64,000 nucleotides of DNA, taken from contig OZ025798.1 of the NCBI GenBank assembly GCA_964019425.1, positions 310,001 to 374,000 of the forward strand, in the 5' to 3' direction. Both the position numbers and the translations under genes were made by a program. Positions 2,741-56,107 of this stretch are shown in pieces. Source of the stretch: Flectonema sp. DT1601 (Eukaryota). How positions within the stretch are numbered: the first letter of the stretch is position 1; each line of letters begins with the position of its first letter. Under the pieces are notes generated by a model that was not told where the DNA came from, did no database searches, and was given only the letters and a program-made list of their open reading frames with translations.

Positions 2741-3139
2741 TTACCAACGACGGTGTCTTCTGAACCTGCCCACTGGTGGTCCAATGTGACGGCGGTGATG
2801 GTGGTGATGATGATGCCTACCGTTACCACTAAGAAGACAGCAGCACATCATAGCTGCACATGCACCAAGACATCCTGCGGCTACGGCATCTCCATCGTTG
2901 TTCTCTTTCACAATAACTGTCTCACGCACAACTGGATTTGGAGCTAAAGCAGCAGGTGGTCCGTAAGTCACAATTTGTGGTTGCGGTGTAGTAGTTCCAT
3001 AGCTTGTCGGTGCTCCCATCGTCTGCACTGGCGGGTAAGCTGCTGTTACATTTGGTGGAACACCAGTTGCTGTACCCGGCGCTGGGTATCCTCCAACAGC
3101 TGCTGGTGGAGCCGATGGAACTGGCTCATAACCTGACAT
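2741..3139 (-). CDS. CYSTM-like protein (Pro/Tyr-rich N-terminus, Cys-rich TM module, His/Arg-rich tail), 132 aa
   Basis: MSGYEPVPSAPPAAVGGYPAP...AAGCLGACAAMMCCCLL matches the CYSTM architecture (GCLxxxxCCCLL). True start taken as ATG 3139. Confidence 0.75.
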   Translation of the reverse strand: MSGYEPVPSAPPAAVGGYPAPGTATGVPPNVTAAYPPVQTMGAPTSYGTTTPQPQIVTYGPPAALAPNPVVRETVIVKENNDGDAVAAGCLGACAAMMCCCLLSGNGRHHHHHHHRRHIGPPVGRFRRHRRW

Positions 3140-4290
3140 TTTTATTGCTTTTGATCTTAAAAATAATAAACAAACATAAAGACGACACACACATAGATGT
3201 TAGATGACGAACTCTTTAAAGCGACCTGCTTCACATATTCTTTGTAGAGTTCCCTGACCATAAAAGAAAATAACTAACCAAAGCTACACAAAAAATTAAT
3301 ACTTTAATGTTTTCCTAAGACTTAAGGTTCTCGTCGTGTAAAGAAAACAAAAAAAAAAAAAAAACTCAAAAAACAGTTTTAAAAGTTAAAAAGGAAAAGA
3401 AAAAAGAGAGAGATAACTAACGATAAATCACTTTTTCTTGTGGCTGAAAAAACTGCGAAACGAAGCATGTCCATCTCAGGAAATTGTTCCTCGTATTGTT
3501 ATACTATGTGTCACAGTGTTTATAGCAGTGAAAATCTGATAGGCAAGCAGGAAGAATAAAACGAAGAGAAAGGGAGGGGAGAAAAAAAAAGTAAGGACGG
3601 TTTTTAAAAAAAAAACATACCGTGAAAACTTTTTTTTTTTAATTTTTATTAAATTTCTTAAAGTCTCTTACATCAAGTCATAGAATAACTAAAAGGCGGT
3701 TGAAGTGAAAAATAATGCGAAATCCAAAAAATCTCACATTTTTTTTTCATAAGTCGCTCCTTTTTAACAGATTCGCACTTGGTATATTGGGTATGTGGAT
3801 GGTATATTTCAAGTTTTTATCAGATTCCCAGATTTCAGTTAGCAAAAGCAGCCAATTTTATTTATTTTAATTTCCTGCCGTGAGTGTCGCCTGCGGCGTT
3901 CATTTTTTAAGAGCTGTCTGCAACCCACCCTCACGACAGGAAAGTGTAATAATACATGAGGTCAAGAGAAACTATTTTCTTTTTTTCCCGTTCTTTTTTT
4001 TGTTAAAAAAGAGTTTCAAAAGAGCAATCGTAAGTAGGATGTCCCTACGAAGAAAAAGAAGAAGAAAAAACAGAGAGAGTGCAGGGTAATTTCCCCTTAA
4101 CTCCAATGACACTGAACTACCATCAGACGTGGAAAGTGCTGGAAGTTAATTCAGACCATCCGAAAGGTATATTTCAGTCAACGAATATAAGGATTTAACG
4201 AAAACGGGGAAAAGGTAAAAAAAAAAAGCTGTAATTCCACATCTCAATGAAGAGTATGAAGAATGCTCTGTGCTGCTAAAAAGTATACAT

Positions 4291-7200
4291 CTACACACGG
4301 CACTCATCATGTTGCAGGCTTTCACATTTCTCAAACGTCAGTAGCTCACCGTCGGTTTGCACAGTTTGCTGTCTTCTCTTGTGGAGGACAACTCCAGCGA
4401 TAACCATTCCTCCAACGCAAAGAGCTGATATAAGAGAAAGAGCAATGAGAAGACCGTTGTTGTTACTACTGGAGTCTTTAGGAGTGCTGGTTAGTTCTCC
4501 AGCTGCCATCCCCTCACCAATTGGTTCCATGATTAAAGTGTTTCCATCACTGTTATCTCTGAGTGGTCCAGTTCCAGACTTTGACTGGTCAACAGCAACG
4601 TTCAGTTTTTTCTCACCGAGATCTACTACACTCTGGTCATTGTCAGTAATTTCAAATTCAACAAACGCTCCTTCATTCAATGACTTCAGCTCACTGACAG
4701 ACCCAGCACCAAGAGTTGAGACACTTCTACTCACTGGCTCATCAATAAGAGGTTCCTCAGTCTCTTCCTTGTACAGTTCCATGTTCCATGATGGTGGGAT
4801 CTTAGTTCCCCACCTCTCACGCATTTCCATTGGCGGAACAACATCATCCTTCATTAGACCTCCAAGGAAGTTGATACGTAATCCTTCTGGTTTCATACCC
4901 TTCACAATCATAAGGATCGTCGTTCTCAGTTTTCTGAGGAACTTCTTTGGGTTTTCTTTAATCTTTCCGAACGATCCCTTGAATGAGAGTCGTAGTGCCT
5001 TACTGTGCTTCTTCTGTTCTCTAACTGGTTCATCAATGACTTCTACTGTGCAGTGGAGACCCTTGGAGTTGCAGCAGTATTCCTTGTCCTCGTCGGTGAG
5101 AAGCTCGGAACCAGCTCTGCAGTCAAAGTCACAACCGACGTATTGTTCATCACAGCACCACTTTCTCTGGGCAGGTTCCCATTCAGACAATGCTCTGCTG
5201 TCGCCGTAGCAGTCGTACTTATCGGCAGCGCATTCGACTTCTTCAATGAGACAGCACATCTTTCTCGTTTCCTCACTCCACTTGGAGCGCACTTCTTTCT
5301 TGGCCTGACACATTTCTCTCTTCTCTTTGAAATCATCAGTCTCATCAACTACCATACGGCATCTCATTCCTTTAGCTGAGCAACACCATTCGGACTGGTC
5401 TTCTGTCCATGCGCTTACGGTTTCTGAGTTCCACTCGCAATCAAAGATGTCGACATCTGTTGGGCAACCGACCTGGAAGTTCTTACAGCAGTAGGCAGAC
5501 TTCTTTTCATCCCACATGTAGTCAACAACTGAAGTCTGAAGTAACCCTTCAGCATTCTTCATAATCTCAAGTGAGTCTTCTGGTACACTGCAGTCATATG
5601 GAGCAACAGGACATGCAACTTTCTTCTCCTCGCAGCACCACTTTCGCTGAGCGTAACCCCATCCTCTTGGATCGTCCTTGCAGTCAAACTGATCCTGGTC
5701 GTCCTTACAGTAACGCCCAGTCATCTCACAGCAGTACTTCTGTTGCTTAACTGAAGGAGACTTAACAAATCCATAGCAGCTGAAAGTCTCACAGCCGAGG
5801 TTCTTCCACTGGGATACAGCTTCTGCCATACACTGCGGCTTGTCTTCAATCTTCTTACAAGCTGGCCTGCATTCCTCAGTACAAACCTTCTCACCGTTGG
5901 AGCACTTGCACATTTGTTGGCAGCCGGTGCAAGCGTATCCTTCCTTACACATTCCACCAGGAGCACAAAGAATAGCGTCATCACTTAGGCCACAATCACC
6001 CGGTACTGGCTTTGGTTCCACGCACGCGATTTTCCCTTCATCAATGATGCAAACTTCTTCATCTCCACAAGATGACGGAGTGCAACGAACCGTTTTCATG
6101 CACCTCCACTCGTTGGTATCTTTTCTACACATTGTGCCCTTTGGACAGTCAGAGCTGCGGTCCATCTCCGCCCACATGGAAGGTCCGTCAATGCGACAAA
6201 CCTCACCCTCAGAAAGGAATGGTTTCCTGCAAGTACCTGAAGCATCAGCAATCATTGGAGGAGTTACACACTTTAAGTCACCCTCACAAATACTGTAGTA
6301 ACATGGAACAGTGTACCCACCACATGATTCACTCTCCTTGGCTCTTGGAACGCACACCATTTCCTTGCTGCACCCGTATTTCTTAGTCGGATTTCTGGCA
6401 GCGCGACAGAACTCGTTTTCTTCACAGTCGTCGTTTGATTTGCATCCCTTCTTGATCTTCTTACAGGTACCCATACAGTCAGTCATCCCATTGTCACACT
6501 TTGTTTCACATTCGAAACCGTTAGGACAAGGGACACCAGCGAATCCACCGCATTCCTTCTCCTTCTCGCATGACATTTCTGTGCAGGAGAACATTCCCTT
6601 CTCACAGACGCAGGAGTTGCAATCCTTCTGCTTTGTGTCACCCTTCTTGCACTCACACACCGTTAGTGTACATACAGAGAATTGTCCGTTCGAACAGCTG
6701 CAGGTGTTGCAGTCAACTTCCATAACTTCCCCATCCATACATTTAATGGTTGGCTTAACAGGAGCTGGAGCTGGAGCTGGGCAGTTCACTTTCTTGTTTT
6801 CGCAACACCACTTCGACTTTTCGGAAGTCCAAACTTCTCTGGTGCGGCAGTTGTAAGCACATTCAGCTCCAAAATCTTTGTTTTCAACGCAATCCATTCC
6901 AGCTTCACATGTAGTTGATGCACAGGTTGGAGGGTCAATTGGAACACAAACAGGTCCCTTAGTTGGATGATCCTTGCAGTTTGTGGTTGCAATACAAAAT
7001 GTTGTCGCACAACTTGGTTTTTGTGGAACACATTTCGCTCCGGTTTTTGGGTTTTCTTCGCAGCCACCAGCGCATCTCAGTACAGAGCAAGTTGGCAATG
7101 AATTAAGTGGAACACACTTAGCACCAGAAATAGGATCTTCTTCACATCTACTGTCAGCAGTACAAATCATTGTAGCACATGTGGGAAGGGCAGCCTTTTC

Positions 7201-7470
7201 ACAAACACCCATGCAGTCGGATACCTTTGGGCCACACTTCTTGACACAATCGTATCCGATGTCACACTGCATCCCAGCAATGCCACCACATTGCTGTTTG
7301 TTTTTTACACAGACACCGTCGCAGTGGGTTGTAGTCTTGCAGGCAGATGTGTCGCAGTGAAACTCAGCAGGGCATCTGAGTGATGCAGTTCCTCCACACA
7401 TTTGTGCAGGTGCTGGTGGGGCATTTTGGGCTGATGCCACAGCGAGCATCAACATTACAACAGATTTCAT
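4291..7470 (-). CDS. Cys-rich type I membrane protein, 1059 aa (copy 1)
   Basis: Signal peptide; CGGxAGxxCxxGxxC modules; follistatin-N-like TCxxxxC..GAKCVP repeats; two pacifastin-like domains (DCNTCSC..G...CTLTVC, DCNSCVC..G...CTEMSC); many WxxxxxxWCC repeats; TM segment LLIALSLISALCVGGMVIAGVVL; short tail. Confidence 0.9.
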   Translation of the reverse strand: MKSVVMLMLAVASAQNAPPAPAQMCGGTASLRCPAEFHCDTSACKTTTHCDGVCVKNKQQCGGIAGMQCDIGYDCVKKCGPKVSDCMGVCEKAALPTCATMICTADSRCEEDPISGAKCVPLNSLPTCSVLRCAGGCEENPKTGAKCVPQKPSCATTFCIATTNCKDHPTKGPVCVPIDPPTCASTTCEAGMDCVENKDFGAECAYNCRTREVWTSEKSKWCCENKKVNCPAPAPAPVKPTIKCMDGEVMEVDCNTCSCSNGQFSVCTLTVCECKKGDTKQKDCNSCVCEKGMFSCTEMSCEKEKECGGFAGVPCPNGFECETKCDNGMTDCMGTCKKIKKGCKSNDDCEENEFCRAARNPTKKYGCSKEMVCVPRAKESESCGGYTVPCYYSICEGDLKCVTPPMIADASGTCRKPFLSEGEVCRIDGPSMWAEMDRSSDCPKGTMCRKDTNEWRCMKTVRCTPSSCGDEEVCIIDEGKIACVEPKPVPGDCGLSDDAILCAPGGMCKEGYACTGCQQMCKCSNGEKVCTEECRPACKKIEDKPQCMAEAVSQWKNLGCETFSCYGFVKSPSVKQQKYCCEMTGRYCKDDQDQFDCKDDPRGWGYAQRKWCCEEKKVACPVAPYDCSVPEDSLEIMKNAEGLLQTSVVDYMWDEKKSAYCCKNFQVGCPTDVDIFDCEWNSETVSAWTEDQSEWCCSAKGMRCRMVVDETDDFKEKREMCQAKKEVRSKWSEETRKMCCLIEEVECAADKYDCYGDSRALSEWEPAQRKWCCDEQYVGCDFDCRAGSELLTDEDKEYCCNSKGLHCTVEVIDEPVREQKKHSKALRLSFKGSFGKIKENPKKFLRKLRTTILMIVKGMKPEGLRINFLGGLMKDDVVPPMEMRERWGTKIPPSWNMELYKEETEEPLIDEPVSRSVSTLGAGSVSELKSLNEGAFVEFEITDNDQSVVDLGEKKLNVAVDQSKSGTGPLRDNSDGNTLIMEPIGEGMAAGELTSTPKDSSSNNNGLLIALSLISALCVGGMVIAGVVLHKRRQQTVQTDGELLTFEKCESLQHDECRV

Positions 7471-7535
7471 TGTGTGTGTTTGGTCTGATTGGTTGAAAGG
7501 TTTAACATGTTTCCTATTACAACTACTACTATACT

Positions 7536-8410
7536 ATACTAATGGCTGTCTACGTTACCTATACTAATGGCTGTCTACGTTACCTATACTAATGGCTGTC
7601 TACGTTACCTATACTAATGGCTGTCTACGTTACCTATACTAATGGCTGTCTACGTTACCTATACTAATGGCTGTCTACGTTACCTATACTAATGGCTGTC
7701 TACGTTACCTATACTAATGGCTGTCTACGTTACCCATACTAATGGCTGTCTACGTTACCTATACTAATGGCTGTCTACGTTACCTATACTAATGGCTGTC
7801 TACGTTACCTATACTAATGGCTGTCTACGTTACCTATACTAATGGCTGTCTACGTTACCTATACTAATGGCTGTCTACGTTACCTATACTAATGGCTGTC
7901 TACGTTACCTATACTAATGGCTGTCTACGTTACCTATACTAATGGCTGTCTACGTTACCTATACTAATGGCTGTCTACGTTACCCATACTAATGGCTGTC
8001 TACGTTACCTATACTAATGGCTGTCTACGTTACCTATACTAATGGCTGTCTACGTTACCTATACTAATGGCTGTCTACGTTACCTATACTAATGGCTGTC
8101 TACGTTACCTATACTAATGGCTGTCTACGTTACCTATACTAATGGCTGTCTACGTTACCTATACTAATGGCTGTCTACGTTACCCATACTAATGGCTGTC
8201 TACGTTACCTATACTAATGGCTGTCTACGTTACCTATACTAATGGCTGTCTACGTTACCTATACTAATGGCTGTCTACGTTACCTATACTAATGGCTGTC
8301 TACGTTACCCATACTAATGGCTGTCTACGTTACCTATACTAATGGCTGTCTACGTTACCTATACTAATGGCTGTCTACGTTACCTATACTAATGGCTGTC
8401 TACGTTACCT
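7536..8410. repeat. 25-bp minisatellite, 35 units (ATACTAATGGCTGTCTACGTTACCT)
   Basis: Head-to-tail units without spacers. T>C variant at the last base of units 8, 18, 26 and 31. Confidence 0.97.
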
Positions 8411-9027
8411 GTTATCAATTGGAAAGACTAATAAAAAGACAAAAGTATTTAAGACATAAGCAACCTTCAATCCATAAAGAGAGGGCCAGGCGACCCCATT
8501 GCGTATTTAAACCATTCAAAAAAATACCAACAGCCTGCAGGTTGCCGACACCGAAAGTATGATGGAAAAGTTTAAGAAAAAGAAAAAAAAGAAAAAAAAA
8601 GAATTCATTAATCGGTAAAAGGAGGAGAGCTATGTAGTCTCGTTCTGTAAAGGGGACACTCACTAACATGCCCTCAGGTTTAAGTACATCACTCCAAAAG
8701 GTTAGGAACAACATACTACGTAACCGCTAAGGACATCTTCGAAGCAACGACTACCACATCATGGAATATGGACTTGGTCAGCCCAGTACTACATTTGAAT
8801 CACAAGTTAAATAAAGTTAAACGATGTTCGACCAAGAATTTGAAAGAAAAAAAAGGGGCGAATGAAAAAATATCCACGCAACGATTTTCTTTTCATCTTT
8901 TTTTTTTGTTGCTGTTGTTGCTTTTTTTAATTTTTTATCTTGGAACACTTAACACAATTTACACATACAGAAAAAGGGAGATTTGATGAGGAAAATAAGT
9001 CGCCGCACAAGAAAAAGTACAGCTGGT

Positions 9028-11040
9028 AATTAGCCTTGCTATACTGTATGCAACTGGGAAAGAGAAGTATACTAAATTGAATGAACATGCAGTTAACAAG
9101 TCTGAGATCACTTAGAAGAATCTACACTGTGGTGCAGATTACTTCTGCGTAGGGGTTGTACCGGGCCATTTCGATTCGACGGGACACCGTCACCAGCACC
9201 ACCACGCGAGTTAAAGAACGACCCCAACGCTTGTTCAACCTTCGCTCTCGTTCCGTGTGAGACTTCCTCTCGAGAAGGAATATCTGCAGGGTTTAGCTTC
9301 GTGCTTACCCAGACAAGGGAGTAGGAACATTTCAAAACTAAAAGGCATTCAATCGCAGTTATCAAACACCTGTTGAGACTGTGTGAGCGAACACACATCT
9401 TCTTCCTAAAAGTACCACAAACTGTAGTGTTGTCAACCCAGATGGAAAGGTGGTCGGCCTTTGCAGTTCCTTTGAGTGTCTGTCCAAGAGCGTCTGCTTC
9501 AAGGATATTTATATGCCGGTCTTCACCAGCAGGCCATGCCGAACCAAGAATTTCCAACTCCTGTTTTCCAAACAATGACACCTCCCCATCCCTGCAATGA
9601 GGCATCCACAAACACTTCGGCAGTCCTCCCCTCTTTCTGCTCAGGCATAATTATCCTCTCCTTCTGCACAGCACCGATCCACATTTCTAATTCCCTCCTT
9701 ACTGAACGGGGCAATTTTAGTACCTGCTGTACTTGTGGGGTCCCCTTGTTTAAGTAATTTGTGACTCTGCGAAGGTACTTCAAACTAGTACTTCCCAGGT
9801 GGAACTCCAACAATGGAGCTGGCATGCAACAGGCGACCTCCTAAGGGCTCCAACTCCGATGCAGTCAATGAATCTAGGTTGGTGTTCTTGATCTTTCTCC
9901 CAATCTTGGTCCCCAAGCTCACCCTGTCTGTATGGTGATCAAAGGTGACCCCCAAGAACTCATTCTCCGGAGAGAGATCCACAGTATCACTTGGTTTCCA
10001 CGTGATGTTTGCTCAGCTGCGCATTTAACCTTCTCCTTGGGGCCGAATAACCTAATGTTATCAATCCACCAGTGAATCCCAACTTCCTCCTCCGCAAATT
10101 CTTTCTTAACGAACAGCGGGTCAACAGCAACTACCGCAGCGATGGTGTTCATCAATTCTGGGGCGTACACATGACCCATCGGAAGTACATCTTCTTCCGT
10201 CTTTGGTGCTTGAGGTACTGCTCCCCCTACTGACCCTTGCTGAGTTGTGGTACACCTCTTCTTCAGACCCTCTAATTCCTACATGATACTTTGTATTACG
10301 GCTGTCTGTTGTTGCTGATGGACCTGCTGTTGTTGATTCATACTTTGGAACAATGCTGTATTCTGGCTCTGCTGATCTTGTTGTTGCTGTTGTACAACCT
10401 GTTGCTCTTTGAATGCTTCCCACATGCCCCCGATGTTCTCAGCTTTTTCGGCGGCCTCCCCTACCCTTCTCCTCACCGATTGGGATTCCTTCTGACATTC
10501 GTTTCTCAACGAGTCGAACCTTTGCTTGGTGTCGCTTCAGAGCGTGTCCGTGCTCTGCTGCAGCGATCCCATCGCATCCTCCGCCTCGTCGTGTGTCACC
10601 AACCTATCCGATCCCCCCTTGGATATCCGCTCGAACATCCGGGCGGCGCTCTGGTTGACCAACTGCAGGCGGCTCCTTGATAGAACCCCCAGTATTACTA
10701 GACACTTATTCATCGAAAGTGTCTTGGCTGCGTCGCTTGAGATCCCGAGACACATGGCCAGTGTGCCTTGGATCAACCTCCTCGTTTCCTTGTCCGACCT
10801 CAATGTGCTTAAATCGATTGCAAAAGGGATACTTGCAATTAGCTCGTCCAAATTGATATTATCTAGCTTCTTTGGTGGTTCCTCACCCATCCTTGCCTTC
10901 CAAACCTCCACTAAGAACTCAGGGAACTCAAAATTAATACGAGTCATTCTTTAACTTAATTTAAATATAAGTTTTCTTGTGATGAAGACAGGGGTGTGAG
11001 AACAATAAAGTAAAGAAACTGTAGCTTTAGAATCGTTGGT
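9028..11040 (-). mobile_element. Decayed, internally deleted DIRS/VIPER-like (YR-class) retroelement copy starting with a spliced-leader exon
   Basis: gag-like ORF from ATG 10947 (stops at 10537 and 10279) runs in frame into RT motifs VLPMG and WWIDN, then EFLG. DIRS-type RNase H motifs VFVDASLQGWGG, HINILEADAL, VDNTTV, NPADIPSR. Frameshifts present. Left boundary defined by the empty site at 16603. Confidence 0.85.
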
Positions 11041-11169
11041 AGCCCCCATCGTCTGCACTGGCGGGTAAGCTGCTGTTACATTTGGTGGAACACCAGTTGC
11101 TGTACCCGGCGCTGGGTATCCTCCAACAGCTGCTGGTGGAGCCGATGGTACTGGCTCATAACCTGACAT
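10951..11169 (-). pseudogene. 3'-truncated CYSTM-like copy fused to retroelement leader
   Basis: First 43 codons match the 3139 gene (to VQTMGA). The frame then reads through the SL and 5' leader to TAA at 10951, and the Cys-rich TM module is lost. Confidence 0.85.
11003..11040 (-). other. Spliced-leader exon relic (ACCAACGATTCTAAAGCTACAGTTTCTTTACTTTATTG)
   Basis: 35/38 identical to positions 2-39 of the Diplonema SL as I recall it (AACCAACGATTTAAAAGCTACAGTTTCTGTACTTTATTG). It shares the euglenozoan ACAGTTTCT.TACT.TATTG end and is followed by TTCTC rather than a GT donor. Confidence 0.9.
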
Positions 11170-12319
11170 TTTTATTGCTTTTGATCTTAAAAATAATAAA
11201 CAAACATAAAGACGACACACACATAGATGTGAGATGACGAACTCTTTAAAGCGACCTGCTTCACATATTCTTTGTAGAGTTCCCTGACCATAAAAGAAAA
11301 TAACTAACCAAAGCTACACAAAAAATTAATACTTTAATGTTTTCCTAAGACTTAAGGTTCTCGTCGTGTAAAGAAAACAAAAAAAAAAAAAAAAACTCAA
11401 AAAACAGTTTTAAAAGTTAAAAAGGAAAAGAAAAAAGAGAGAGATAACTAACGATAAATCACTTTTTCTGGAGGCTGAAAAAACTGCGAAACGAAGCATG
11501 TCCATCTCAGGAAATTGTTCCTCGTATTGTTATACTATGTGTCACAGTGTTTATAGCAGTGAAAATCTGATAGGCAAGCAGGAAGAATAAAACGAAGAGA
11601 GAGGGAGGAGAAAAAAAAAGTAAGGACGGTTTTTAAAAAAAAAACATACCGTGAAAACTTTTTTTTTTTAATTTTTTATTAAATTTCTTAAAGTCTCTTA
11701 CATCAAGTCATAGAATAACTAAAAGGCGGTTGAAGTGAAAAATAATGCGAAATCCAAAAAATCTCACATTTTTTTTTCATAAGTCGCTCCTTTTTAACAG
11801 ATTCGCACTTGGTATATTGGGTATGTGGATGGTATATTTCAAGTTTTTATCAGATTCCCGGATTTCAGTTAGCAAAAGCAGCCAATTTTATTTATTTTAA
11901 TTTCCTGCCGTGAGTGTCGCCTGCGGCGTTCATTTTTTAAGAGCTGTCTGCAACCCACCCTCACGACAGGAAAGTGTAATAATACATGAGGTCAAGAGAA
12001 ACTATTTTCTTTTTTTCCCGTTCTTTTTTTTGTTAAAAAAGAGTTTCAAAAGAGCAATCGTAAGTAGGATGTCCCTACGAAGAAAAAGAAGAAGAAAAAA
12101 CAGAGAGAGTGCAGGGTAATTTCCCCTAACTCCAATGACACTGAACTACCATCAGACGTGGAAAGTGCTGGAAGTTAATTCAGACCATCCGAAAGGTATA
12201 TTTCAGTCAACGAATATAAGGATTTAACGAAAACGGGGAAAAGGTAAAAAAAAAAAGCTGTAATTCCACATCTCAATGAAGAGTATGAAGAATGCTCTGT
12301 GCTGCTAAAAAGTATACAT

Positions 12320-15300
12320 CTACACACGGCACTCATCATGTTGCAGGCTTTCACATTTCTCAAACGTCAGTAGCTCACCGTCAGTTTGCACAGTTTGCTG
12401 TCTTCTCTTGTGGAGGACAACTCCAGCGATAACCATTCCTCCAACGCAAAGAGCTGATATAAGAGAAAGAGCAATGAGAAGACCGTTGTTGTTACTACTG
12501 GAGTCTTTAGGAGTGCTGGTTAGTTCTCCAGCAGCCATCCCCTCACCAATTGGTTCCATGATTAAAGTGTTTCCATCACTGTTATCTCTGAGTGGTCCAG
12601 TTCCAGACTTTGACTGGTCAACAGCAACGTTCAGTTTTTTCTCACCGAGATCTACTACACTCTGGTCATTGTCAGTAATTTCAAATTCAACAAACGCTCC
12701 TTCATTCAATGACTTCAGCTCACTGACAGACCCAGCACCAAGAGTTGAGACACTTCTACTCACTGGCTCATCAATAAGAGGTTCCTCAGTCTCTTCCTTG
12801 TACAGTTCCATGTTCCATGATGGTGGGATCTTAGTTCCCCACCTCTCACGCATTTCCATTGGCGGAACAACATCATCCTTCATTAGACCTCCAAGGAAGT
12901 TGATACGTAATCCTTCTGGTTTCATACCCTTCACAATCATAAGGATCGTCGTTCTCAGTTTTCTGAGGAACTTCTTTGGGTTTTCTTTAATCTTTCCGAA
13001 CGATCCCTTGAATGAGAGTCGTAGTGCCTTACTGTGCTTCTTCTGTTCTCTAACTGGTTCATCAATGACTTCTACTGTGCAGTGGAGACCCTTGGAGTTG
13101 CAGCAGTATTCCTTGTCCTCGTCGGTGAGAAGCTCGGAACCAGCTCTGCAGTCAAAGTCACAACCGACGTATTGTTCATCACAGCACCACTTTCTCTGGG
13201 CAGGTTCCCATTCAGACAATGCTCTGCTGTCGCCGTAGCAGTCGTACTTATCGGCAGCGCATTCGACTTCTTCAATGAGACAGCACATCTTTCTCGTTTC
13301 CTCACTCCACTTGGAGCGCACTTCTTTCTTGGCCTGACACATTTCTCTCTTCTCTTTGAAATCATCAGTCTCATCAACTACCATACGGCATCTCATTCCT
13401 TTAGCTGAGCAACACCATTCGGACTGGTCTTCTGTCCATGCGCTTACGGTTTCTGAGTTCCACTCGCAATCAAAGATGTCGACATCTGTTGGGCAACCGA
13501 CCTGGAAGTTCTTACAGCAGTAGGCAGACTTCTTTTCATCCCACATGTAGTCAACAACTGAAGTCTGAAGTAACCCTTCAGCATTCTTCATAATCTCAAG
13601 TGAGTCTTCTGGTACACTGCAGTCATATGGAGCAACAGGACATGCAACTTTCTTCTCCTCGCAGCACCACTTTCGCTGAGCGTAACCCCATCCTCTTGGA
13701 TCGTCCTTGCAGTCAAACTGATCCTGGTCGTCCTTACAGTAACGCCCAGTCATCTCACAGCAGTACTTCTGTTGCTTAACTGAAGGAGACTTAACAAATC
13801 CATAGCAGCTGAAAGTCTCACAGCCGAGGTTCTTCCACTGGGATACAGCTTCTGCCATACACTGCGGCTTGTCTTCAATCTTCTTACAAGCTGGCCTGCA
13901 TTCCTCAGTACAAACCTTCTCACCGTTGGAGCACTTGCACATTTGTTGGCAGCCGGTGCAAGCGTATCCTTCCTTACACATTCCACCAGGAGCACAAAGA
14001 ATAGCGTCATCACTTAGGCCACAATCACCCGGTACTGGCTTTGGTTCCACGCACGCGATTTTCCCTTCATCAATGATGCAAACTTCTTCATCTCCACAAG
14101 ATGACGGAGTGCAACGAACCGTTTTCATGCACCTCCACTCGTTGGTATCTTTTCTACACATTGTGCCCTTTGGACAGTCAGAGCTGCGGTCCATCTCCGC
14201 CCACATGGAAGGTCCGTCAATGCGACAAACCTCACCCTCAGAAAGGAATGGTTTCCTGCAAGTACCTGAAGCATCAGCAATCATTGGAGGAGTTACACAC
14301 TTTAAGTCACCCTCACAAATACTGTAGTAACATGGAACAGTGTACCCACCACATGATTCACTCTCCTTGGCTCTTGGAACGCACACCATTTCCTTGCTGC
14401 ACCCGTATTTCTTAGTCGGATTTCTGGCAGCGCGACAGAACTCGTTTTCTTCACAGTCGTCGTTTGATTTGCATCCCTTCTTGATCTTCTTACAGGTACC
14501 CATACAGTCAGTCATCCCATTGTCACACTTTGTTTCACATTCGAAACCGTTAGGACAAGGGACACCAGCGAATCCACCGCATTCCTTCTCCTTCTCGCAT
14601 GACATTTCTGTGCAGGAGAACATTCCCTTCTCACAGACGCAGGAGTTGCAATCCTTCTGCTTTGTGTCACCCTTCTTGCACTCACACACCGTTAGTGTAC
14701 ATACAGAGAATTGTCCGTTCGAACAGCTGCAGGTGTTGCAGTCAACTTCCATAACTTCCCCATCCATACATTTAATGGTTGGCTTAACAGGAGCTGGAGC
14801 TGGAGCTGGGCAGTTCACTTTCTTGTTTTCGCAACACCACTTCGACTTTTCGGAAGTCCAAACTTCTCTGGTGCGGCAGTTGTAAGCACATTCAGCTCCA
14901 AAATCTTTGTTTTCAACGCAATCCATTCCAGCTTCACATGTAGTTGATGCACAGGTTGGAGGGTCAATTGGAACACAAACAGGTCCCTTAGTTGGATGAT
15001 CCTTGCAGTTTGTGGTTGCAATACAAAATGTTGTCGCACAACTTGGTTTTTGTGGAACACATTTCGCTCCGGTTTTTGGGTTTTCTTCGCAGCCACCAGC
15101 GCATCTCAGTACAGAGCAAGTTGGCAATGAATTAAGTGGAACACACTTAGCACCAGAAATAGGATCTTCTTCACATCTACTGTCAGCAGTACAAATCATT
15201 GTAGCACATGTGGGAAGGGCAGCCTTTTCACAAACACCCATGCAGTCGGATACCTTTGGGCCACACTTCTTGACACAATCGTATCCGATGTCACACTGCA

Positions 15301-15499
15301 TCCCAGCAATGCCACCACATTGCTGTTTGTTTTTTACACAGACACCGTCGCAGTGGGTTGTAGTCTTGCAGGCAGATGTGTCGCAGTGAAACTCAGCAGG
15401 GCATCTGAGTGATGCAGTTCCTCCACACATTTGTGCAGGTGCTGGTGGGACATTTTGGGCTGATGCCACAGCGAGCATCAACATTACAACAGATTTCAT
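12320..15499 (-). CDS. Cys-rich type I membrane protein, 1059 aa (copy 2)
   Basis: Same protein as 4291-7470; the only amino-acid difference I found is A17V, plus a few synonymous SNPs. Confidence 0.9.
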   Translation of the reverse strand: MKSVVMLMLAVASAQNVPPAPAQMCGGTASLRCPAEFHCDTSACKTTTHCDGVCVKNKQQCGGIAGMQCDIGYDCVKKCGPKVSDCMGVCEKAALPTCATMICTADSRCEEDPISGAKCVPLNSLPTCSVLRCAGGCEENPKTGAKCVPQKPSCATTFCIATTNCKDHPTKGPVCVPIDPPTCASTTCEAGMDCVENKDFGAECAYNCRTREVWTSEKSKWCCENKKVNCPAPAPAPVKPTIKCMDGEVMEVDCNTCSCSNGQFSVCTLTVCECKKGDTKQKDCNSCVCEKGMFSCTEMSCEKEKECGGFAGVPCPNGFECETKCDNGMTDCMGTCKKIKKGCKSNDDCEENEFCRAARNPTKKYGCSKEMVCVPRAKESESCGGYTVPCYYSICEGDLKCVTPPMIADASGTCRKPFLSEGEVCRIDGPSMWAEMDRSSDCPKGTMCRKDTNEWRCMKTVRCTPSSCGDEEVCIIDEGKIACVEPKPVPGDCGLSDDAILCAPGGMCKEGYACTGCQQMCKCSNGEKVCTEECRPACKKIEDKPQCMAEAVSQWKNLGCETFSCYGFVKSPSVKQQKYCCEMTGRYCKDDQDQFDCKDDPRGWGYAQRKWCCEEKKVACPVAPYDCSVPEDSLEIMKNAEGLLQTSVVDYMWDEKKSAYCCKNFQVGCPTDVDIFDCEWNSETVSAWTEDQSEWCCSAKGMRCRMVVDETDDFKEKREMCQAKKEVRSKWSEETRKMCCLIEEVECAADKYDCYGDSRALSEWEPAQRKWCCDEQYVGCDFDCRAGSELLTDEDKEYCCNSKGLHCTVEVIDEPVREQKKHSKALRLSFKGSFGKIKENPKKFLRKLRTTILMIVKGMKPEGLRINFLGGLMKDDVVPPMEMRERWGTKIPPSWNMELYKEETEEPLIDEPVSRSVSTLGAGSVSELKSLNEGAFVEFEITDNDQSVVDLGEKKLNVAVDQSKSGTGPLRDNSDGNTLIMEPIGEGMAAGELTSTPKDSSSNNNGLLIALSLISALCVGGMVIAGVVLHKRRQQTVQTDGELLTFEKCESLQHDECRV

Positions 15500-15564
15500 T
15501 GTGTGTGTTTGGTCTGATTGGTTGAAAGGTTTAACATGTTTCCTATTACAACTACTACTATACT

Positions 15565-15914
15565 ATACTAATGGCTGTCTACGTTACCTATACTAATGGC
15601 TGTCTACGTTACCTATACTAATGGCTGTCTACGTTACCTATACTAATGGCTGTCTACGTTACCTATACTAATGGCTGTCTACGTTACCTATACTAATGGC
15701 TGTCTACGTTACCTATACTAATGGCTGTCTACGTTACCTATACTAATGGCTGTCTACGTTACCCATACTAATGGCTGTCTACGTTACCTATACTAATGGC
15801 TGTCTACGTTACCTATACTAATGGCTGTCTACGTTACCTATACTAATGGCTGTCTACGTTACCTATACTAATGGCTGTCTACGTTACCTATACTAATGGC
15901 TGTCTACGTTACCT
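15565..15914. repeat. 25-bp minisatellite, 14 units
   Basis: Same unit as 7536-8410. Shares the unit-8 T>C variant. Confidence 0.97.
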
Positions 15915-18427
15915 GTTATCAATTGGAAAGACTAATAAAAAGACAAAAGTATTTAAGACATAAGCAACCTTCAATCCATAAAGAGAGGGCCAGACGACCC
16001 CATTGCGTATTTAAACCATTCAAAAAAATACCAACAGCCTGCAGGTTGCCGACACCGAAAGTATGATGGAAAAGTTTAAGAAAAAAAAAAAAAAAAGAAA
16101 AAAAAAAGAATTCATTAATCGGTAAAAGGAGGAGAGCTATGTAGTCTCGTTCTGTAAAGGGGACACTCACTAACATGCCCTCAGGTTTAAGTACATCACT
16201 CCAAAAGGTTAGGAACAACATACTACGTAACCGCTAAGGACATCTTCGAAGCAACGACTACCACATCATGGAATATGGACTTGGTCAGCCCAGTACTACA
16301 TTTGAATCACAAGTTAAATAAAGTTAAACGATGTTCGACCAAGAATTTGAAAGAAAAAAAAGGGTGGGGGAATCGGCGAATGAAAAAATATCTACGCAAC
16401 GATTTTCTTTTCATCTTTTTTTTTTAAAAAAAAAAAAATATGGGTTTTTTATTTTATTATTATTATAATCTTTTTTTTTTTTTTGCTGTTGTTGTTTTTT
16501 TTAATTTTTTTTATCTTGGAACACTTAACACAATTTACACATACAGAAAAAGGGAGATTTGATGAGGAAAATAAGTCGCCGCACAAGAAAAAGTACAGCT
16601 GGTTGGCCGCCGAAAAGTTGCTTCCCCTCAGCGAAGTACTTCCTTTCGAAATATTCCTTGCGTCGGTTTAGATACTTTCTCCACGGAATAAGGGAACAAG
16701 AGTTTCTTTTTAAAATAAATGCTTTTCTGAGGCCTACAACAGATCATTCCCAAATCAACACATCGACTTCACTCGCATGATTCTACTCCTCACCAGAGAG
16801 GAGGCAAACGGAGGATCAAAGAGAGGTTATAAGTTACTATAGATGGCTACAGGTATCTCGTTTCTCAACACGGCGTTGCATTTGAGTTTGTAGGAGGGGT
16901 TAAATTAAACTAAGACTGATCTCCAATGAGGTAAACAACGCTCATTTAATTAGTTCGTCCTCAATAGATAGAAACAACCAAAGAGTGAGCTGCTTCACAA
17001 AATGTGATGCCGCAGAATGAATGATCTTTTCTGTCTTTCAAGAGGACTTATATAAATGTTTGATGACGCTGTTTCATCCAACAAGCACAAACGTACATTA
17101 ATTGTGATTGACTTGTTTACACAACTTCCTGACGTTTTAGAATGCAAATAACATTGTTATCACGACACACGCTAGGACATTATTTTCACAAAAGTGATTT
17201 ACAGTAACAGGGGGAAGTGTCACACTAAAATGATCCTTCTTTTTTACTTTGATCCAAAAGCGAAAACTTACAAAATTTGAGAACATTCCAAATATAAATT
17301 AATACTTGATAGTAATTACCCAACGATGTTAAAGAAGTTGAGGTTCATTTTGTCATCCGAGGAGCTTATTGATAGCGAGAGAGGGAGGAGGATTTGGTGA
17401 GGAAAAAAGCAAGCCAGTCAAAAATAACGTGACTGTAGCAGGGCAATGTAGTCAATGGAAAATATATTTCAAAAAAAAGAGAAAAAAAAAAAAAAAACAA
17501 AGACACAAGAAACCACAATTCACCAGACAAGCAGGTGATCCTCGAGTCACCATCTGCACTCCATATTTGTGCAGGTGCCCAGAGAACAATGATGATTTTA
17601 TCGAGCGGGGTCCAAGACTGATTCTTGTCTTAGAAGACATAATTAGGGGCTACGAATTTTAAGAATTTTTTTTAAGTGATGCACGAACTACTATGTTCTA
17701 AATTATTACTATTTTGGTTTTTTTTGTTTTTCCTTCTTTCATTGTAAAGTTTCAGTTTTTTTTCAATTTTTCTTTTTTAAAACCTGACTTTGACCAACAA
17801 AAAAAAAGAAGAAAAAAAAAAAAAAAGGGAAAGGACAGGAAAAGGAAATGAAAGGGGAAAACCTTGGCAACAGTTCTTGGGCATATAAAGCGGGACCTCA
17901 TCTTTCCAACTATACTCCACAAAGAAAAATTAGATCTTCACCCTCCTGCAAGCTGGACTACGGAGGCACAATACCACCTCCAGCTTAACGAAGTGCAAAG
18001 GCCACAGCCGTGGAAGTCCTTAACCCTCCAGCATAGGTGACACTCGACTATGGGTTATTTCTAAAGTTTATTTCCATAATTTAAAAGAAAAAAAAAAACT
18101 AATTGCTGCCCGTTTTACACCTTTTTTTTTCTTATGTGTCCGACAAACAGGTAAAACTGTTTACCGCTGAGGTTAGAGAATCAGTTCTAATTCTGTGTGC
18201 CAATAATTCAATCGGCTACACACACAAAAAAAAAAAAAAAAAAAACAATAAAGGGTACAAAATTGTTTCTAATTTTTCTTTTAAGGGTAAATTCTGTTTT
18301 TTTTTTTTTTAATTTTGATTCCACCGTGTAAAAGAGAAGAAGATATAATAAATAAATAACATACCCACTCTGATTAAAAATCTTTTTTTGAAAGCGTCCA
18401 AGAGTTGTCGCTACAATAATATTTTTT

Positions 18428-19857
18428 TTACCAACCGCAGTCATCCTGAGTACCGAATGGCAACGAGCTCTCAGAATAGAACTGTCGGAACCTGTTTTAT
18501 TTTCTTATAAATCAATCAACTTGCATTTCATCAAATAAACTTAATAAAACAAAACACATCATACCAACGTCTGTACGCCATAATTGGTCCATCACCAGTA
18601 GTCAACATCGGCTTTGGCAAAAAAGTTTTTGCTTCCCAGAGATCGCAGTCACTGTTGGTGGTTTTTTTTTTTTTTTTTTTTTTTTTTGTATTATATCAGT
18701 GTGTTATAATTATTAAAGTTAAAACCATACCGTTGGAATTGGCGTGAAGCCCCTAACGCGATTATCTTTGCGATCATTCTCGGAACTCTTTTCTCGGCGT
18801 AGTAGTAATGCTCAACTCTGTTACGAAGTTGGCCAACTGGAGTACAGTTTTGTGACATCAACATTAAACCAAATGGAGTGTGAAGATGTAAGAATACCAA
18901 ACCAGGTCCTACTTGCCATGCTGTAACAGGTACTCTAGTTAATGATGGGAGGAATGGACTGAACGGTCCTATTTCGATATCCATTTGAACAGTCATGCTG
19001 GAGCTGTAAGGTTTGTCTTCGTTTACTTTCCAGGTAGCGTCCCAAACGTGTTTTACAACAGAACCACCAGTCTTATGAAGATCTCCGCCATAAATCCAAT
19101 GTTTGTGTAGAACATTTAAGTGAGCAACGTCAGGTCCATTTTCAGGAATTTCTGCGATGTGAGTTAACACTTCGTGACCAGACCAAGCTGCGAGGTACCA
19201 CTCACCGTTTTCAATCTTTTCGTATGCAGGTGGTTCCCACTTAGGTGGTTCGTTGTCTGCGTGAAACCAGACGTAAATTTTTTTATTTCTCTCAATGCAG
19301 TCATAAGCTTGGATACTTGCATCTTTTGGAATAGTATCACTGTATTGAATTCCTTCACATTCACCATCAGGGTTGAATCTCCAGGCGTGGAATGGGCACT
19401 CAACACACCCGTCAACAACTCTTCCATGAACCCCCAAGTCAGCACCCAAATGAGGACAGTAGGCGTCTAGAACTCCAACTTTGCCTTCTTTTGTTCTAAA
19501 AGCTACCATCTTTTTACCACAGAGGTTAACGCTAACAACTTTTTCTTTTTTAATTTCGTGGTCGTCTAGAATTTTGTACCAACCATTTGGATATGGCGGT
19601 AACGTATCTTTTGAGAGTCTCTTTTTTGGGGCATCTCTACCGAGTCCGTGCCAACCTCCGTTTAACATCATTGTTGACTGATTCCATCTCCACCACATTA
19701 CAAACAAAATAAAACCCGTAATAAGCAAATAGTTATCGAGGACGAATTCAACAGCTGGACCTACTACAGGCCAGTATTTCTGAACCAAGTTGGTTGTCAT
19801 TTGAGTGATTCCGCTGACTTCAGCGGTGCCACTGGTTTCATTTGTTAGGTAATCCAT
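18428..19857 (-). CDS. nvd: Neverland/DAF-36-like Rieske sterol 7-desaturase, 3 exons (introns 18652-18730 and 18492-18564)
   Basis: N-terminal TM, PYPNGWY, Rieske CPHLGADL..CPFHAW, non-heme Fe motif EIPENGPDVAHLNVLH. Splicing two GT-AG introns restores QFQRDCDLWEAK..PKPML..GDGPI.AYRRWFRQFYSESS..W*. Confidence 0.85.
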
Positions 19858-46581: not shown

Positions 46582-47667
46582 TTATATCACACGAGCTTTA
46601 TAAGACTTTTGCTGAGGTGAGTTTGACATTGGTGGAGGAGTGCTCCCGCCTTGATAGCGTAGATTTTCAACTTCCGCCCGAAGTGCTTTCAATTCTTCTA
46701 TCACTTCTCGATTGCTTGGCATGTCACTACGTTCAGATAGCTCAGTCTCACCTGTTACGTACAAGGGTTCTTTACCAGCTTCCATTTCATGTCTCGCTTT
46801 ATCTTCAGCATTTTTAGTATACGCTGCAATTGCTGTATCAAGAACCGAGAAGATGCAAGCACCAGTGAAGACACCAATCCAACCAAAGACTGATCCCAAC
46901 AAGTCAAGTAGAGACTGTCCTGATTTGTGTTTAATTTTCATTATATCGAAAGTCGCTGGTAAGATATGAACTTCGAATTGATTATTTGGGCGATCTGAAT
47001 ACTGAGTGGTTGCGAATTCAGTTGAATTCTTAATACTGCCATTGAGGTAATGTTGTTGTGATAATTTGTATGAAATTGAAGCAACGTTTCCAAACCCGAT
47101 GTAAACAGGAGCTGGCATCTCTCGTTCATTAATTGTTTCACCCCTAGCTAAAGCCATCATAGTAATATCATCGCCCATAAATCCAACCCACGTTGAGGAA
47201 TCATGATTCTGAAATTCACATTCTTGTGGGATAGATTCCAGCGAGTCAACGTGTTTGTTATTTTTATTGTATCGAACACTGAAGGATACATTCAAGAAAT
47301 CTAGGGGATTTTCATAACCAATACCCAGTTCCCTTAATTTAATACCGTTTACGAGATATCCAACCTCAGAGTTGTTTGATAATTCAACTGCTGCTTCACA
47401 GTCTATTGAGGTTGGTAATCTATTCTTAATTTTATAAAAACTACATCCTTCCGCATGAAGATGACATAATTTTCCCATATTTGTCGGTGCGAAAACCCAT
47501 GGCACGCTCAAATCATTAAGCTGGTCGGTTTCGATGTCAACCGTGTTTTTTCTTCCAGTTTGAACGTAAAAAACACTCAGTTTGATCACGAAGAATGCAC
47601 AAATCCCCCACAACAACAACAATATAATCATCCTCACAATCTGTAACTTTCTCTTGCTGAGTGCCAT
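46582..47667 (-). CDS. Two-TM ENaC/DEG-like channel subunit, paralog 1 (361 aa)
   Basis: TM1, glycosylated ectodomain, TM2 LLGSVFGWIGVFTGACIFSVLD, C-terminal coiled coil. Start MALSKRK follows the conserved AG acceptor. Confidence 0.75.
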   Translation of the reverse strand: MALSKRKLQIVRMIILLLLWGICAFFVIKLSVFYVQTGRKNTVDIETDQLNDLSVPWVFAPTNMGKLCHLHAEGCSFYKIKNRLPTSIDCEAAVELSNNSEVGYLVNGIKLRELGIGYENPLDFLNVSFSVRYNKNNKHVDSLESIPQECEFQNHDSSTWVGFMGDDITMMALARGETINEREMPAPVYIGFGNVASISYKLSQQHYLNGSIKNSTEFATTQYSDRPNNQFEVHILPATFDIMKIKHKSGQSLLDLLGSVFGWIGVFTGACIFSVLDTAIAAYTKNAEDKARHEMEAGKEPLYVTGETELSERSDMPSNREVIEELKALRAEVENLRYQGGSTPPPMSNSPQQKSYKARVI

Positions 47668-50364: not shown

Positions 50365-51399
50365 TTATTTCAGTTCCGTGAACAATGATGGGTTTCCTCG
50401 ATATTTCAAATCCTCGACTTCTGCCTGCAGCATATCAAATCTTTCCATAATCTCACGAATACGAGACGCTGAATCACCATTTTCACAAAGTTCAGTGTCC
50501 GGGATAAGCTTTTCGTTGACTCGCTCGAAGAAATTGTCCTGAGATTTTTCAGCCTCGCTGTAGGTTGCAATGGCTGTGTCTATAAAAGAGAATATGCAGG
50601 TACCTGTGAAAATACCAACCCAACCGAATATGGATCCCAACAAGTCAAACAATGACTGCCCACGCTCGTGTTTAATTTTCGTAATATCGAAAGAAGCTGG
50701 CAAGACGTTAACCGTAATTTCGTTTTTCTGATAGTCGCGGAATTGAGTGGTTGCGAATTCAGTTGAATTCTTAATGGTGCCATTGAGGTATTGTTGTTGT
50801 GATAATTTGTATGAAATTGAAGCAACGTTTCCAAATCCGATGTAAACAGGAGCTGGCCTGTCTAGTTCATTAATGGGTTCACCCCTAGCTATCGCATTCA
50901 TGATTACATCATCACCCAACAGTGCAATCTGCGTAGACGACTCACTTGAAGCGGAATTACACGCGTCTGGAATCGAGTCATTCGGATTTACCAATTCGAG
51001 TGTGTCTCTATATCTAACGCTAAAAGTCAGAGTCATATAGTCATAAGGGTGTGTGAAACTAATACCTAACGCTTTCAGTAACAAACTATTAGCCATGTAT
51101 GAGTTCTCCGTTTCTAGAACCTGAACAGCACTTGTGCAGTTTAGATATTCATCTGTTGTCCACCTCGAGAAACGACAATCGTCCGGTTTCAGTATGCACT
51201 CCCCTCCTATAAGGCCAGGAGTATATAACCAGGGCACACTGATATCGTTTTCACGCTCTGTCTCTATATCGATTGTATTCTTACTACCAGTTTCGACATA
51301 GTCAATACTCAGCTTCACAATAACGTAAGCACAAATCCCCCACAAGATCAACAATATAAGCAGCCTCGCAATCTGTAACTTTCTCTTGCTGAGTGCCAT
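50365..51399 (-). CDS. Two-TM ENaC/DEG-like channel subunit, paralog 2 (344 aa)
   Basis: As paralog 1. TM2 LLGSIFGWVGIFTGTCIFSFID. Confidence 0.75.
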   Translation of the reverse strand: MALSKRKLQIARLLILLILWGICAYVIVKLSIDYVETGSKNTIDIETERENDISVPWLYTPGLIGGECILKPDDCRFSRWTTDEYLNCTSAVQVLETENSYMANSLLLKALGISFTHPYDYMTLTFSVRYRDTLELVNPNDSIPDACNSASSESSTQIALLGDDVIMNAIARGEPINELDRPAPVYIGFGNVASISYKLSQQQYLNGTIKNSTEFATTQFRDYQKNEITVNVLPASFDITKIKHERGQSLFDLLGSIFGWVGIFTGTCIFSFIDTAIATYSEAEKSQDNFFERVNEKLIPDTELCENGDSASRIREIMERFDMLQAEVEDLKYRGNPSLFTELK

Positions 51400-51746
51400 A
51401 GTAAAAGGTGATATAAGTATAACCTGTTTGAAAAAGATAAATACTGTAATTATAAATATCACGGTGTATAAATCTTGGGGTTGGATACCGTCTTGGAACC
51501 ACTGCGAAAGTAGCGCCTGAAGCAGAACTCCCATCAGCTCGGTCAAGGTTTCTGGAGCAATAGTCCCATACTTTATTAAAAAACGCTCCAATCGGATCTA
51601 AACTAACTAAAAAACACTCCAATCGGATTGCCCTGGCCTCGCAGTTTTTGACCAGTTTAGGGGGCAGATAACTGAGGAAGTCCTTCGTCGATTTGAAGGC
51701 GGATGGACTTCTCATCTCTAGCCTTGATAGCATTACGAAAAATACT

Positions 51747-56074: not shown

Positions 56075-56107
<33 letters not shown>

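What the first reader, a model, noticed from the sequence alone, without database searches (positions are those of the whole stretch)
9028..11040. DIRS/VIPER-like retroelement whose 5' terminus is a spliced-leader exon
Seen: the inserted segment starts, on the minus strand, with a 38-nt SL-like sequence (11040-11003). Next come 55 nt of leader, the gag-like ATG, then RT and DIRS-type RNase H. TATTG is followed by TTCTC, not GT, so this is a spliced junction and not an SL RNA gene. There is no poly(A) tail at the 3' end. Known: euglenozoan SL exons are added to mRNAs by trans-splicing; CRE/SLACS non-LTR elements insert into SL genes, which is a different arrangement. Inference: either this is a cDNA of a trans-spliced element transcript, or it belongs to a YR-class family that uses the host SL as its defined 5' end, in place of the split or inverted terminal repeats of DIRS elements. 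I know of no description of the latter.
Basis: partly seen in the sequence, partly recalled or inferred. Interest (0 to 1): 0.92.

Follow-up and report, generated by a model that had tools for sequence, protein, structure and literature searches.

The report
Trans-spliced VIPER retrocopy in host duplication
A broken retrotransposon copy in a protist genome (likely a diplonemid) starts with the host's spliced-leader exon exactly where a sister copy has its own splice acceptor, so it is likely a one-off DNA copy of a trans-spliced RNA rather than a new family built on the leader.

Summary
The 38-nt leader at 11040-11003 is real. A spliced-leader (SL) gene contig in run X1 matches 37 of 38 bases and continues with GT. 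In the same run, a sister copy of the element has a pyrimidine tract plus CAG at exactly the base where the window has the SL, and it encodes the residues of the young intact subfamily. So the family carries its own acceptor, and the window copy is a processed cDNA. The family has VIPER architecture: gag, an overlapping tyrosine recombinase (YR) and RT/RNase H. The window copy has lost about 2.4 kb (all of YR, half of RT) and has 3 stops and 3 frameshifts. It has no split repeats, no poly(A), and its ORF1 is on one contig only. It sits between two 99.7%-identical copies of about 6 kb of host DNA. The likely route is an abortive, one-ended integration. An SL-terminated family is unlikely (about 10%) but was not excluded genome-wide, because no assembly was available.

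The parts
11003..11040 (-). Spliced-leader exon, 38 of an inferred 39 nt, joined at the element's acceptor position
   Evidence: 37/38 match to an SL RNA gene contig followed by GT; the sister copy has a pyrimidine tract + CAG here
10948..11002 (-). 55-nt element leader between the acceptor position and the ORF1 ATG
   Evidence: covered by the sister-copy contig
10189..10947 (-). gag-like ORF1, 5' two thirds, with two premature stops
   Evidence: 92% identical to the 420-aa intact P0073 over 251 aligned residues; the 136-aa piece equals P0088, on 1 contig
10180..10195 (-). Deletion junction: gag residue ~263 joined in frame to ORF3 residue 645; about 2.4 kb lost, including all of YR and the first RT motifs
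   Evidence: size inferred from the lengths of P0073 and P0002
9616..10185 (-). RT remnant with the WIDNIR motif and linker; two frameshifts and a stop
   Evidence: P0002 aa 645-703, 711-789 and 788-872 map in different frames at 91-95% identity
9108..9615 (-). RNase H remnant and ORF3 end, one frameshift near 9560
   Evidence: P0002 aa 855-1013 at 91%; weak Pfam DNA_pol_viral_C hit, E 0.046
9028..9107 (-). 3' terminal segment (likely a single B repeat) with a pyrimidine tract + CAG near its end, no poly(A)
   Evidence: same end as the copy that gives P0056 and within 2 bases of an X1 contig end; no A2/B2 repeat
11042..16603 (.). Host block, copy A (upstream of the element in element sense)
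3012..9027 (.). Host block, copy A' (downstream); 16 substitutions against copy A in about 5,140 aligned bases, plus indels
10951..11169 (-). Host gene cut at the 5' junction and fused in frame to SL + leader (about 72 aa); the intact copy is at 2741-3139

Best explanation
This is a broken copy of a VIPER-type retroelement whose first 38 bases are the host spliced leader, joined exactly where a sister copy has its own splice acceptor, so it is likely a one-off DNA copy of a trans-spliced element RNA, likely inserted by an abortive one-ended integration that duplicated about 6 kb of host DNA. Shown: the SL identity, the acceptor in a sister copy, the family's gag/RT-RNase H proteins, the duplication, and the loss of YR and split repeats in this copy. 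Inferred (about 0.9): a family member was transcribed, trans-spliced at the acceptor 55 nt before ORF1, and reverse transcribed to the SL's 5' end. Inferred (about 0.8): the element's own machinery did this, not a LINE, because the copy ends at the family's terminus without poly(A) or a short target duplication. Inferred (about 0.5): with the 5' repeat A1 replaced by SL, the strand transfer that normally builds the circle failed; YR joined the intact B end to the host at 9027/16603, and host repair joined the free SL end 6 kb away through a 5-of-6 microhomology, giving host-A, element, host-A'. The copy cannot make its proteins, has lost its acceptor and recombination junction, and would be a dead end (inferred, about 0.85).
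For: SL gene and acceptor-bearing sister copy in run X1. The sister's three coding differences give V4, I15, C39, the residues of the intact subfamily P0071/P0073; 8 of 11 changed codons are silent. 6 of 12 members of the P0002 cluster are full-length 1013 aa, and five compared differ from P0002 by 2 of 369 residues, so a young intact subfamily exists. The 3' end is shared with an independent nested insertion (P0056). The 5' junction has SL ACCAAC against host ACCGAC (5/6; 0.6% of window sites reach this) and two base changes within 4 bases of the joint, against 0.3% divergence elsewhere. All five published VIPER lineages I looked at (B. saltans 1, C. fasciculata 3, T. cruzi 1) show, by eye, a pyrimidine or U-rich tract and AG at the end of A1 or just after it (PMC6681497 Additional file 10, parts 1-3 of 6). 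VIPER and TATE normally make no target duplication (PMC12278014, passage). Retroviral DNA with one bad end gives host duplications of hundreds to thousands of bp (PMC5041404, passages; an analogy from a different enzyme class).
Against: The acceptor rests on one contig of depth 2.5 from one run whose host flanks were not covered, so it may be a sister strain or species. No genome was held, so other copies' 5' ends were not counted. Timing does not fit neatly: the element has 20 private changes in 554 sites (about 1.5% at DNA level) and 3 stops, while the host duplicates differ by about 0.7% outside the long ORF and 0.09% inside it. P(>=20 changes) is 0.002 or less if both are the same age (the script counted 14 non-coding substitutions where one search lists 13). 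This needs later homogenisation of the duplicates or an already decayed template, and no such template shows among 20 gag cluster members. Some private changes may be subfamily differences. The single B end could also come from later B1 x B2 recombination. In T. cruzi the A repeat stops a few bases before the AG, so the strand-transfer argument is not uniform across VIPERs.
Confidence: 0.6

Rival explanations
1. Still a one-off processed cDNA, but with a different insertion history: either host repair used the cDNA of an already decayed copy as a patch at a duplication breakpoint, or the SL-headed copy inserted long ago at the start of the host block and a later unequal exchange made the duplication.
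For: Explains why the element is more decayed than the duplicates. The one SL mismatch fits decay in place. The host site at the 3' junction (AACCAGC) matches the SL start in 6 of 7 bases, as a clean earlier insertion site might.
Against: The patch version predicts a source copy with the same ORF1 stop; P0088 is on 1 contig and no similar member is among 20. The two-step version needs the later breakpoint to fall within one base of the SL start.
Confidence: 0.27
2. A VIPER subfamily propagates with the SL as its regular 5' end, the SL start standing in for the recombination core of the lost A repeat.
For: The window copy differs from the young subfamily mostly at silent sites, so it comes from a separate lineage whose other members were not seen. 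Both host breakpoints resemble the SL start.
Against: The sister copy has an acceptor. The intact relative L002 has no SL (best 9 mismatches in 22). The P0058 junction does not read as SL. The ORF1 piece is on one contig. A DNA copy that already holds the SL has no acceptor of its own, so its transcript would gain host sequence at the 5' end and could not easily keep a fixed end (inference).
Confidence: 0.1
3. DNA-level recombination between an SL RNA gene and the element, or an assembly chimera.
For: The copy lies at a rearrangement junction, and no reads of this genome could be laid across it.
Against: The joint uses both the exact donor end of the SL exon and the exact acceptor position of the element, which only splicing predicts. 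No SL intron or upstream SL-gene sequence is present. Contaminating cDNA would not be decayed and flanked by host DNA on both sides.
Confidence: 0.03

Closest known systems
VIPER (VIPER-like YR retrotransposons of kinetoplastids; Ribeiro et al. 2019, PMC6681497)
   Same: gag-like ORF1, YR overlapping the RT/RNase H ORF, and the same motifs read by eye in the published T. cruzi and C. fasciculata copies (WIDNIR; HSIKRGA...LAKH...Y). Weak hepadnavirus-type RNase H hit, in line with the paper's RH tree. No poly(A). Acceptor-like signal before ORF1.
   Different: Host is likely a diplonemid (a 48%-identical relative is D. papillatum DIPPA_26658). This copy has SL in place of A1, one B-like end, no A2/B2, no YR, and a 6-kb flanking duplication.
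TATE (telomere-associated YR element; TATE-like ORFs noted in D. papillatum, PMC10161547)
   Same: Same three-ORF VIPER-like plan.
   Different: Not in telomeric repeats here. No named TATE sequence was in my tree, so VIPER against TATE rests on motifs read by eye only.
Dinoflagellate relict-SL retrogenes (passage in PMC3942190; PMC5585692 and PMC12014239 seen as listings only)
   Same: SL exon fixed in genomic DNA by reverse transcription of a trans-spliced RNA.
   Different: There it is common and affects host genes; here the template is the retroelement itself, and it is the only SL in 64 kb.
CRE/SLACS/CZAR non-LTR elements
   Same: Retroelement next to SL sequence.
   Different: They insert into SL RNA genes and have a poly(A) tail; here the SL is a spliced exon with no SL-gene context, and the RT is of VIPER type.
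Aberrant one-ended retroviral integrations (PMC5041404)
   Same: One normal end, one end joined by host enzymes, kilobase host duplication.
   Different: DDE integrase on linear DNA, not a tyrosine recombinase; an analogy only.

Membership tests
VIPER-like YR retrotransposons (the family) | Three ORFs: gag-like, YR, RT/RNase H, with the last two overlapping | tested here: met
   gag 420 aa and ORF3 1013 aa. A YR-type motif is compatible with the +1 frame of ORF3 in 6 of 6 tested proteins, shuffles 0-2 of 3000; the motif was tuned on these proteins. P0069 aa 85-232 is 38% identical to ORF2 of L002, whose DNA shows all three ORFs. No DNA of an intact family member was seen.
VIPER-like YR retrotransposons (the family) | ORF2 is a tyrosine recombinase | tested here: met
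   Motif as in published VIPER YR (by eye); Atlas lead to Phage_int_SAM_1, score 0.95, rank 6, 56% of members. Pfam and PDB sequence searches of L002 ORF2 gave nothing and its fold model was unusable (pLDDT 37).
VIPER-like YR retrotransposons (the family) | RT groups with named VIPER/TATE in a tree | tested here: inconclusive
   Quick tree of 60 of 128 qualifying rows (154 examined); the only named row is D. papillatum DIPPA_26658; no named VIPER, TATE, DIRS or Ngaro row.
VIPER-like YR retrotransposons (the family) | Split direct repeats A1 ... B1-A2-B2 in intact copies | not testable with these tools
   No genome held; L002 ends 19 bases after its ORF3.
VIPER-like YR retrotransposons (this copy as a complete element) | Split direct repeats and YR present | tested here: not met
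   Longest internal repeat 12 nt; ORF3 aa 1-644 and the YR region are absent.
VIPER-like YR retrotransposons (this copy as a complete element) | Insertion without target duplication | tested here: not met
   Flanked by a 5.6-6.0 kb direct duplication.
Processed copy of a trans-spliced RNA | SL exon joined at an acceptor that an unspliced copy still has | tested here: met
   (one contig, depth 2.5)
Processed copy of a trans-spliced RNA | The spliced RNA exists in the organism | not testable with these tools
   No RNA holder listed.
LINE-made retrocopy | 3' poly(A) and short target duplication | tested here: not met
CRE/SLACS | Inserted in an SL RNA gene, poly(A) tail | tested here: not met
   No SL intron or upstream SL-gene sequence around the exon; no poly(A).
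Proposed SL-terminated YR family | Intact copies begin at the SL | tested here: not met
   0 of 2 other 5' regions seen as DNA (X1 contig; distant L002) begin with the SL; a small sample.

The most novel reading that the evidence does not exclude
SL-headed copies are a recurring class, not an accident: the SL start mimics the B|A recombination core of this diplonemid VIPER family, so its YR can integrate trans-spliced cDNAs, its own and possibly host mRNAs, and such events generate kilobase gene duplications.
Probability: 0.12. Interest if true: 0.72.

Novelty: new member of a known kind. Interest (0 to 1): 0.35.

Why it matters
VIPER replication has only been extrapolated from Ngaro/PAT models, and the main VIPER paper mentions trans-splicing once, in its background. 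This fossil indicates that a VIPER RNA is trans-spliced at an acceptor just before ORF1 and that such an RNA can be reverse transcribed and integrated. That poses a testable question: how does an element whose RNA loses its 5' end rebuild it? The internal A2 repeat, which holds the acceptor signal in the published copies viewed, is the obvious candidate. It also shows a retroelement at the joint of a host gene duplication. I found no report of an SL-headed VIPER copy or of SL retrocopies in diplonemids in searches, which cover open-licence papers only. As a single decayed copy it is an instructive accident, not a new system.

Tried and rejected
No whole genome is held for this window, so the copy census was not possible. 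No RNA holder was listed among sequencing runs; this says nothing on expression. A protein search for ORFs crossing the SL/leader in other copies found no candidate at 49-158 aa, not even the window's own fusion ORF, so it is uninformative. A metagenome scan with 20 leader bases gave 1 hit with unrelated flanks, judged chance. Viral contigs: 0 relatives among 130 and 27 candidate stretches. Prokaryote genomes: 1 of 60 candidates, L002, probably a eukaryotic contig in a bin (inference). Rfam gave two junk hits at E 0.6-0.7. PDB sequence searches were uninformative. The single-sequence fold of L002 ORF2 was too poor to search. The first two versions of the YR motif missed P0001-P0003 because of spacing limits; the final version also fits 13 of 53 long relatives. 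The Atlas query for RT/RNase H did not complete. Text search of 12 of 13 supplements of PMC6681497 for motifs found nothing, and the alignments are in unreadable files. The SIRE/VIPER paper PMC15765 is not held; that SIRE supplies trans-splice acceptors in T. cruzi is recalled, not read. A published diplonemid SL sequence was not found; its likeness to the window's SL is recalled. No earlier findings of this scan matched. A universal ACC core at element ends was considered: it fits both window junctions and can fit P0056/P0058, but the X1 3' contig aligns only to 9027 with 2 letters not shown, so it stays unproven.

Full report
Observation. The minus strand shows the 38-nt SL-like segment at 11040-11003, a 55-nt leader, ATG at 10947, and no poly(A) at 9028. 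The segment is unique in the window. Rfam has no hit for it. The independent test came from the only listed run, X1, which holds 0.09 of the sampled words. A 68-nt contig of depth 14 matches 11003-11040 with one mismatch. In SL sense it continues with GTACAG and is preceded by 13 bases ending in A, so it is an SL RNA gene with a 39-nt exon and a GT donor. The position of the mismatch is not shown.

The decisive contig. A second X1 contig (418 nt, depth 2.5, 22 differences in 205 bases) follows the element from 10799 to 11003 and then runs on for 210 bases unlike the window. The 30 bases shown read, in element sense, as a pyrimidine tract (TTTCTATCCCTTTAT) then CAG, whose G is base 11003. Of 11 codons changed against the window, 8 are silent; the other three give V4, I15 and C39 (15 of the 22 differences were listed within the ORF). 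Those are the residues of the intact subfamily P0071/P0073. So a member of the young subfamily has its own trans-splice acceptor where the window has the SL. Caveats: one contig, low depth, and host flanks not covered in X1, so it may be a sister strain or species.

The family. The RNase H piece finds 7 proteins among 723 candidates, two at 91-92% identity with 20 and 12 cluster members. Six of the 12 members of the P0002 cluster are 1013 aa long, and five compared differ from P0002 by 2 of 369 residues in the C-terminal part. The ORF1 piece finds a 420-aa gag, one sequence of which is on 5 contigs. Pfam gives only weak RT and RNase H hits. The N-terminal half of ORF3 is compatible, in the +1 frame, with a YR-type motif in 6 of 6 proteins tested (shuffles 0-2 of 3000; motif tuned on them). 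A frameshifted member, P0069, carries real ORF2 sequence: the Atlas links it to Phage_int_SAM_1 as a lead, and it is 38% identical over 149 residues to ORF2 of L002. L002 is a 36%-identical relative whose DNA shows gag, overlapping ORF2 and RT/RNase H, with no SL upstream. By eye, the published T. cruzi and C. fasciculata VIPER copies encode the same WIDNIR and HSIKRGA...LAKH motifs. A profile search gave 407 proteins at E 1e-30 or better; of 10 looked up, one is D. papillatum DIPPA_26658, 48% identical. That, and my recollection of the diplonemid SL, point to a diplonemid host. The tree had no named VIPER or TATE row.

This copy. Its pieces map to gag residues 1-263 and to ORF3 residues 645-703, 711-789, 788-872 and 855-1013, in three frames. 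About 2.4 kb is missing, by protein lengths. There are three stops and three frameshifts. The longest internal repeat is 12 nt, so there is no A2 or second B. The 136-aa ORF1 piece equals P0088, seen on one contig; none of the other 19 listed gag members has that stop. The last 20 codons of the segment match the start of P0056, which then continues in the RNase H of a related family. P0058 holds the other half of that RNase H and ends QNSI-stop. If these two flank one insertion, as their equal contig length suggests, then the 3' end here is the family's terminus and that copy's 5' end is not the SL. An X1 contig also ends 2 bases past 9027.

The setting. The element lies between two direct copies of a host block: 16603-11042 and 9027-3012. 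They differ by 16 substitutions in about 5,140 aligned bases, plus indels and 14 against 35 units of a 25-bp array. The block holds a 1059-aa Cys-rich gene; a 132-aa gene is cut at the 5' junction and intact at 2741-3139. At the 5' junction the SL's ACCAAC faces host ACCGAC, with two base changes next to the joint. At the 3' junction TAATT meets host ACCAGC. A 5-of-6 match to the SL start occurs at 0.6% of sites.

Mechanism. Essentially all D. papillatum mRNAs carry an SL (PMC10161547, section 9), so an element RNA would too. VIPER has A1 at the 5' end and B1-A2-B2 at the 3' end and makes no target duplication (PMC6681497 sections 6, 7, 9; PMC12278014 passages). In the copies I viewed, A covers a pyrimidine tract and AG and runs past it in B. 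saltans (1) and C. fasciculata (3); in T. cruzi it ends in the U-rich tract just before the AG (by eye; parts 1-3 of 6). I infer that splicing removes most of A1, and that normal replication either uses unspliced RNA or rebuilds the end from A2. Here reverse transcription ran on into the SL. The cDNA then had one usable end. A YR joint at the B end and a repair joint at the SL end 6 kb away give the observed order. One-ended retroviral integrations give such duplications (PMC5041404 passages), but that is another enzyme class, and this step is about even odds.

Against this reading. The element is more decayed than the duplicates are diverged: 20 private changes in 554 sites (about 1.5% DNA) against about 0.7% outside the long ORF and 0.09% inside it; P is 0.002 or less for equal age, and 0.02 or less for three stops. 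The duplicates may have been homogenised, the template may have been decayed already, or insertion and duplication were separate events. The window copy also belongs to a lineage apart from the young subfamily, and that lineage's 5' ends are unseen. Only two other 5' regions were seen as DNA.

Comparison and novelty. SL exons in genomic DNA are known from dinoflagellate retrogenes (PMC3942190 passage). CRE/SLACS insert into SL genes. The D. papillatum genome paper mentions TATE-like ORFs and SLACS but neither VIPER nor DIRS in its main text; its Additional file 1 sections on repeats may say more, and I could not confirm they were among the 7 files searched. Searches showed no report of an SL-headed VIPER copy; most hits were seen as listings only, and PMC11613528, PMC4006747, PMC2696322 and PMC12618653 as passages that added nothing on this point.

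Verdict. Real feature, correctly seen. It is best read as a processed, dead copy of a diplonemid VIPER-type element at a duplication joint. New member of known kinds; interest 0.35. The family-level reading keeps about 10%, and the broader novel case 0.12.

Noticed in passing
window 46582-63970 (+): Five tandem paralogues of 346-389 aa; two tested give weak Pfam ASC (amiloride-sensitive sodium channel) hits at E 0.002 and 0.0008 in the second membrane segment. A possible DEG/ENaC-like family in a euglenozoan.
   Followed up: partly
window 4291-7470 and 12320-15499 (-): Duplicated 1059-aa Cys-rich protein with a signal-like start, a C-terminal hydrophobic segment and pacifastin repeats (E 1.6e-9); the copies differ by 3 bases in 3,243.
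   Followed up: partly
window 7534-8410 and 15563-15914: Near-perfect 25-bp tandem array just upstream of the Cys-rich gene, 35 against 14 units, although the flanks are 99.7% identical.
   Followed up: no
window 18691-19857 (-): Rieske oxygenase with a KshA C-terminal domain, possibly a sterol 7-desaturase type (recalled family).
   Followed up: no
window 9050-9075 (-): Pyrimidine tract + CAG about 27 nt before the element's 3' end; a published C. fasciculata B repeat has a similar signal. It could supply an acceptor for the downstream host gene.
   Followed up: no
proteins P0004 and P0041-P0054: A related family with 28 members, several listed ones on contigs of equal length (30,665; 285,401), suggesting tandem arrays as in TATE.
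   Followed up: no
proteins P0056, P0058, P0023: Apparent nested insertion of this family into the RNase H of the P0005 family, splitting the DAS|LKG motif.
   Followed up: partly
L002 260-5925: Intact three-ORF VIPER-like element in a contig filed under a bacterial MAG from a lake; probably eukaryotic contamination.
   Followed up: partly
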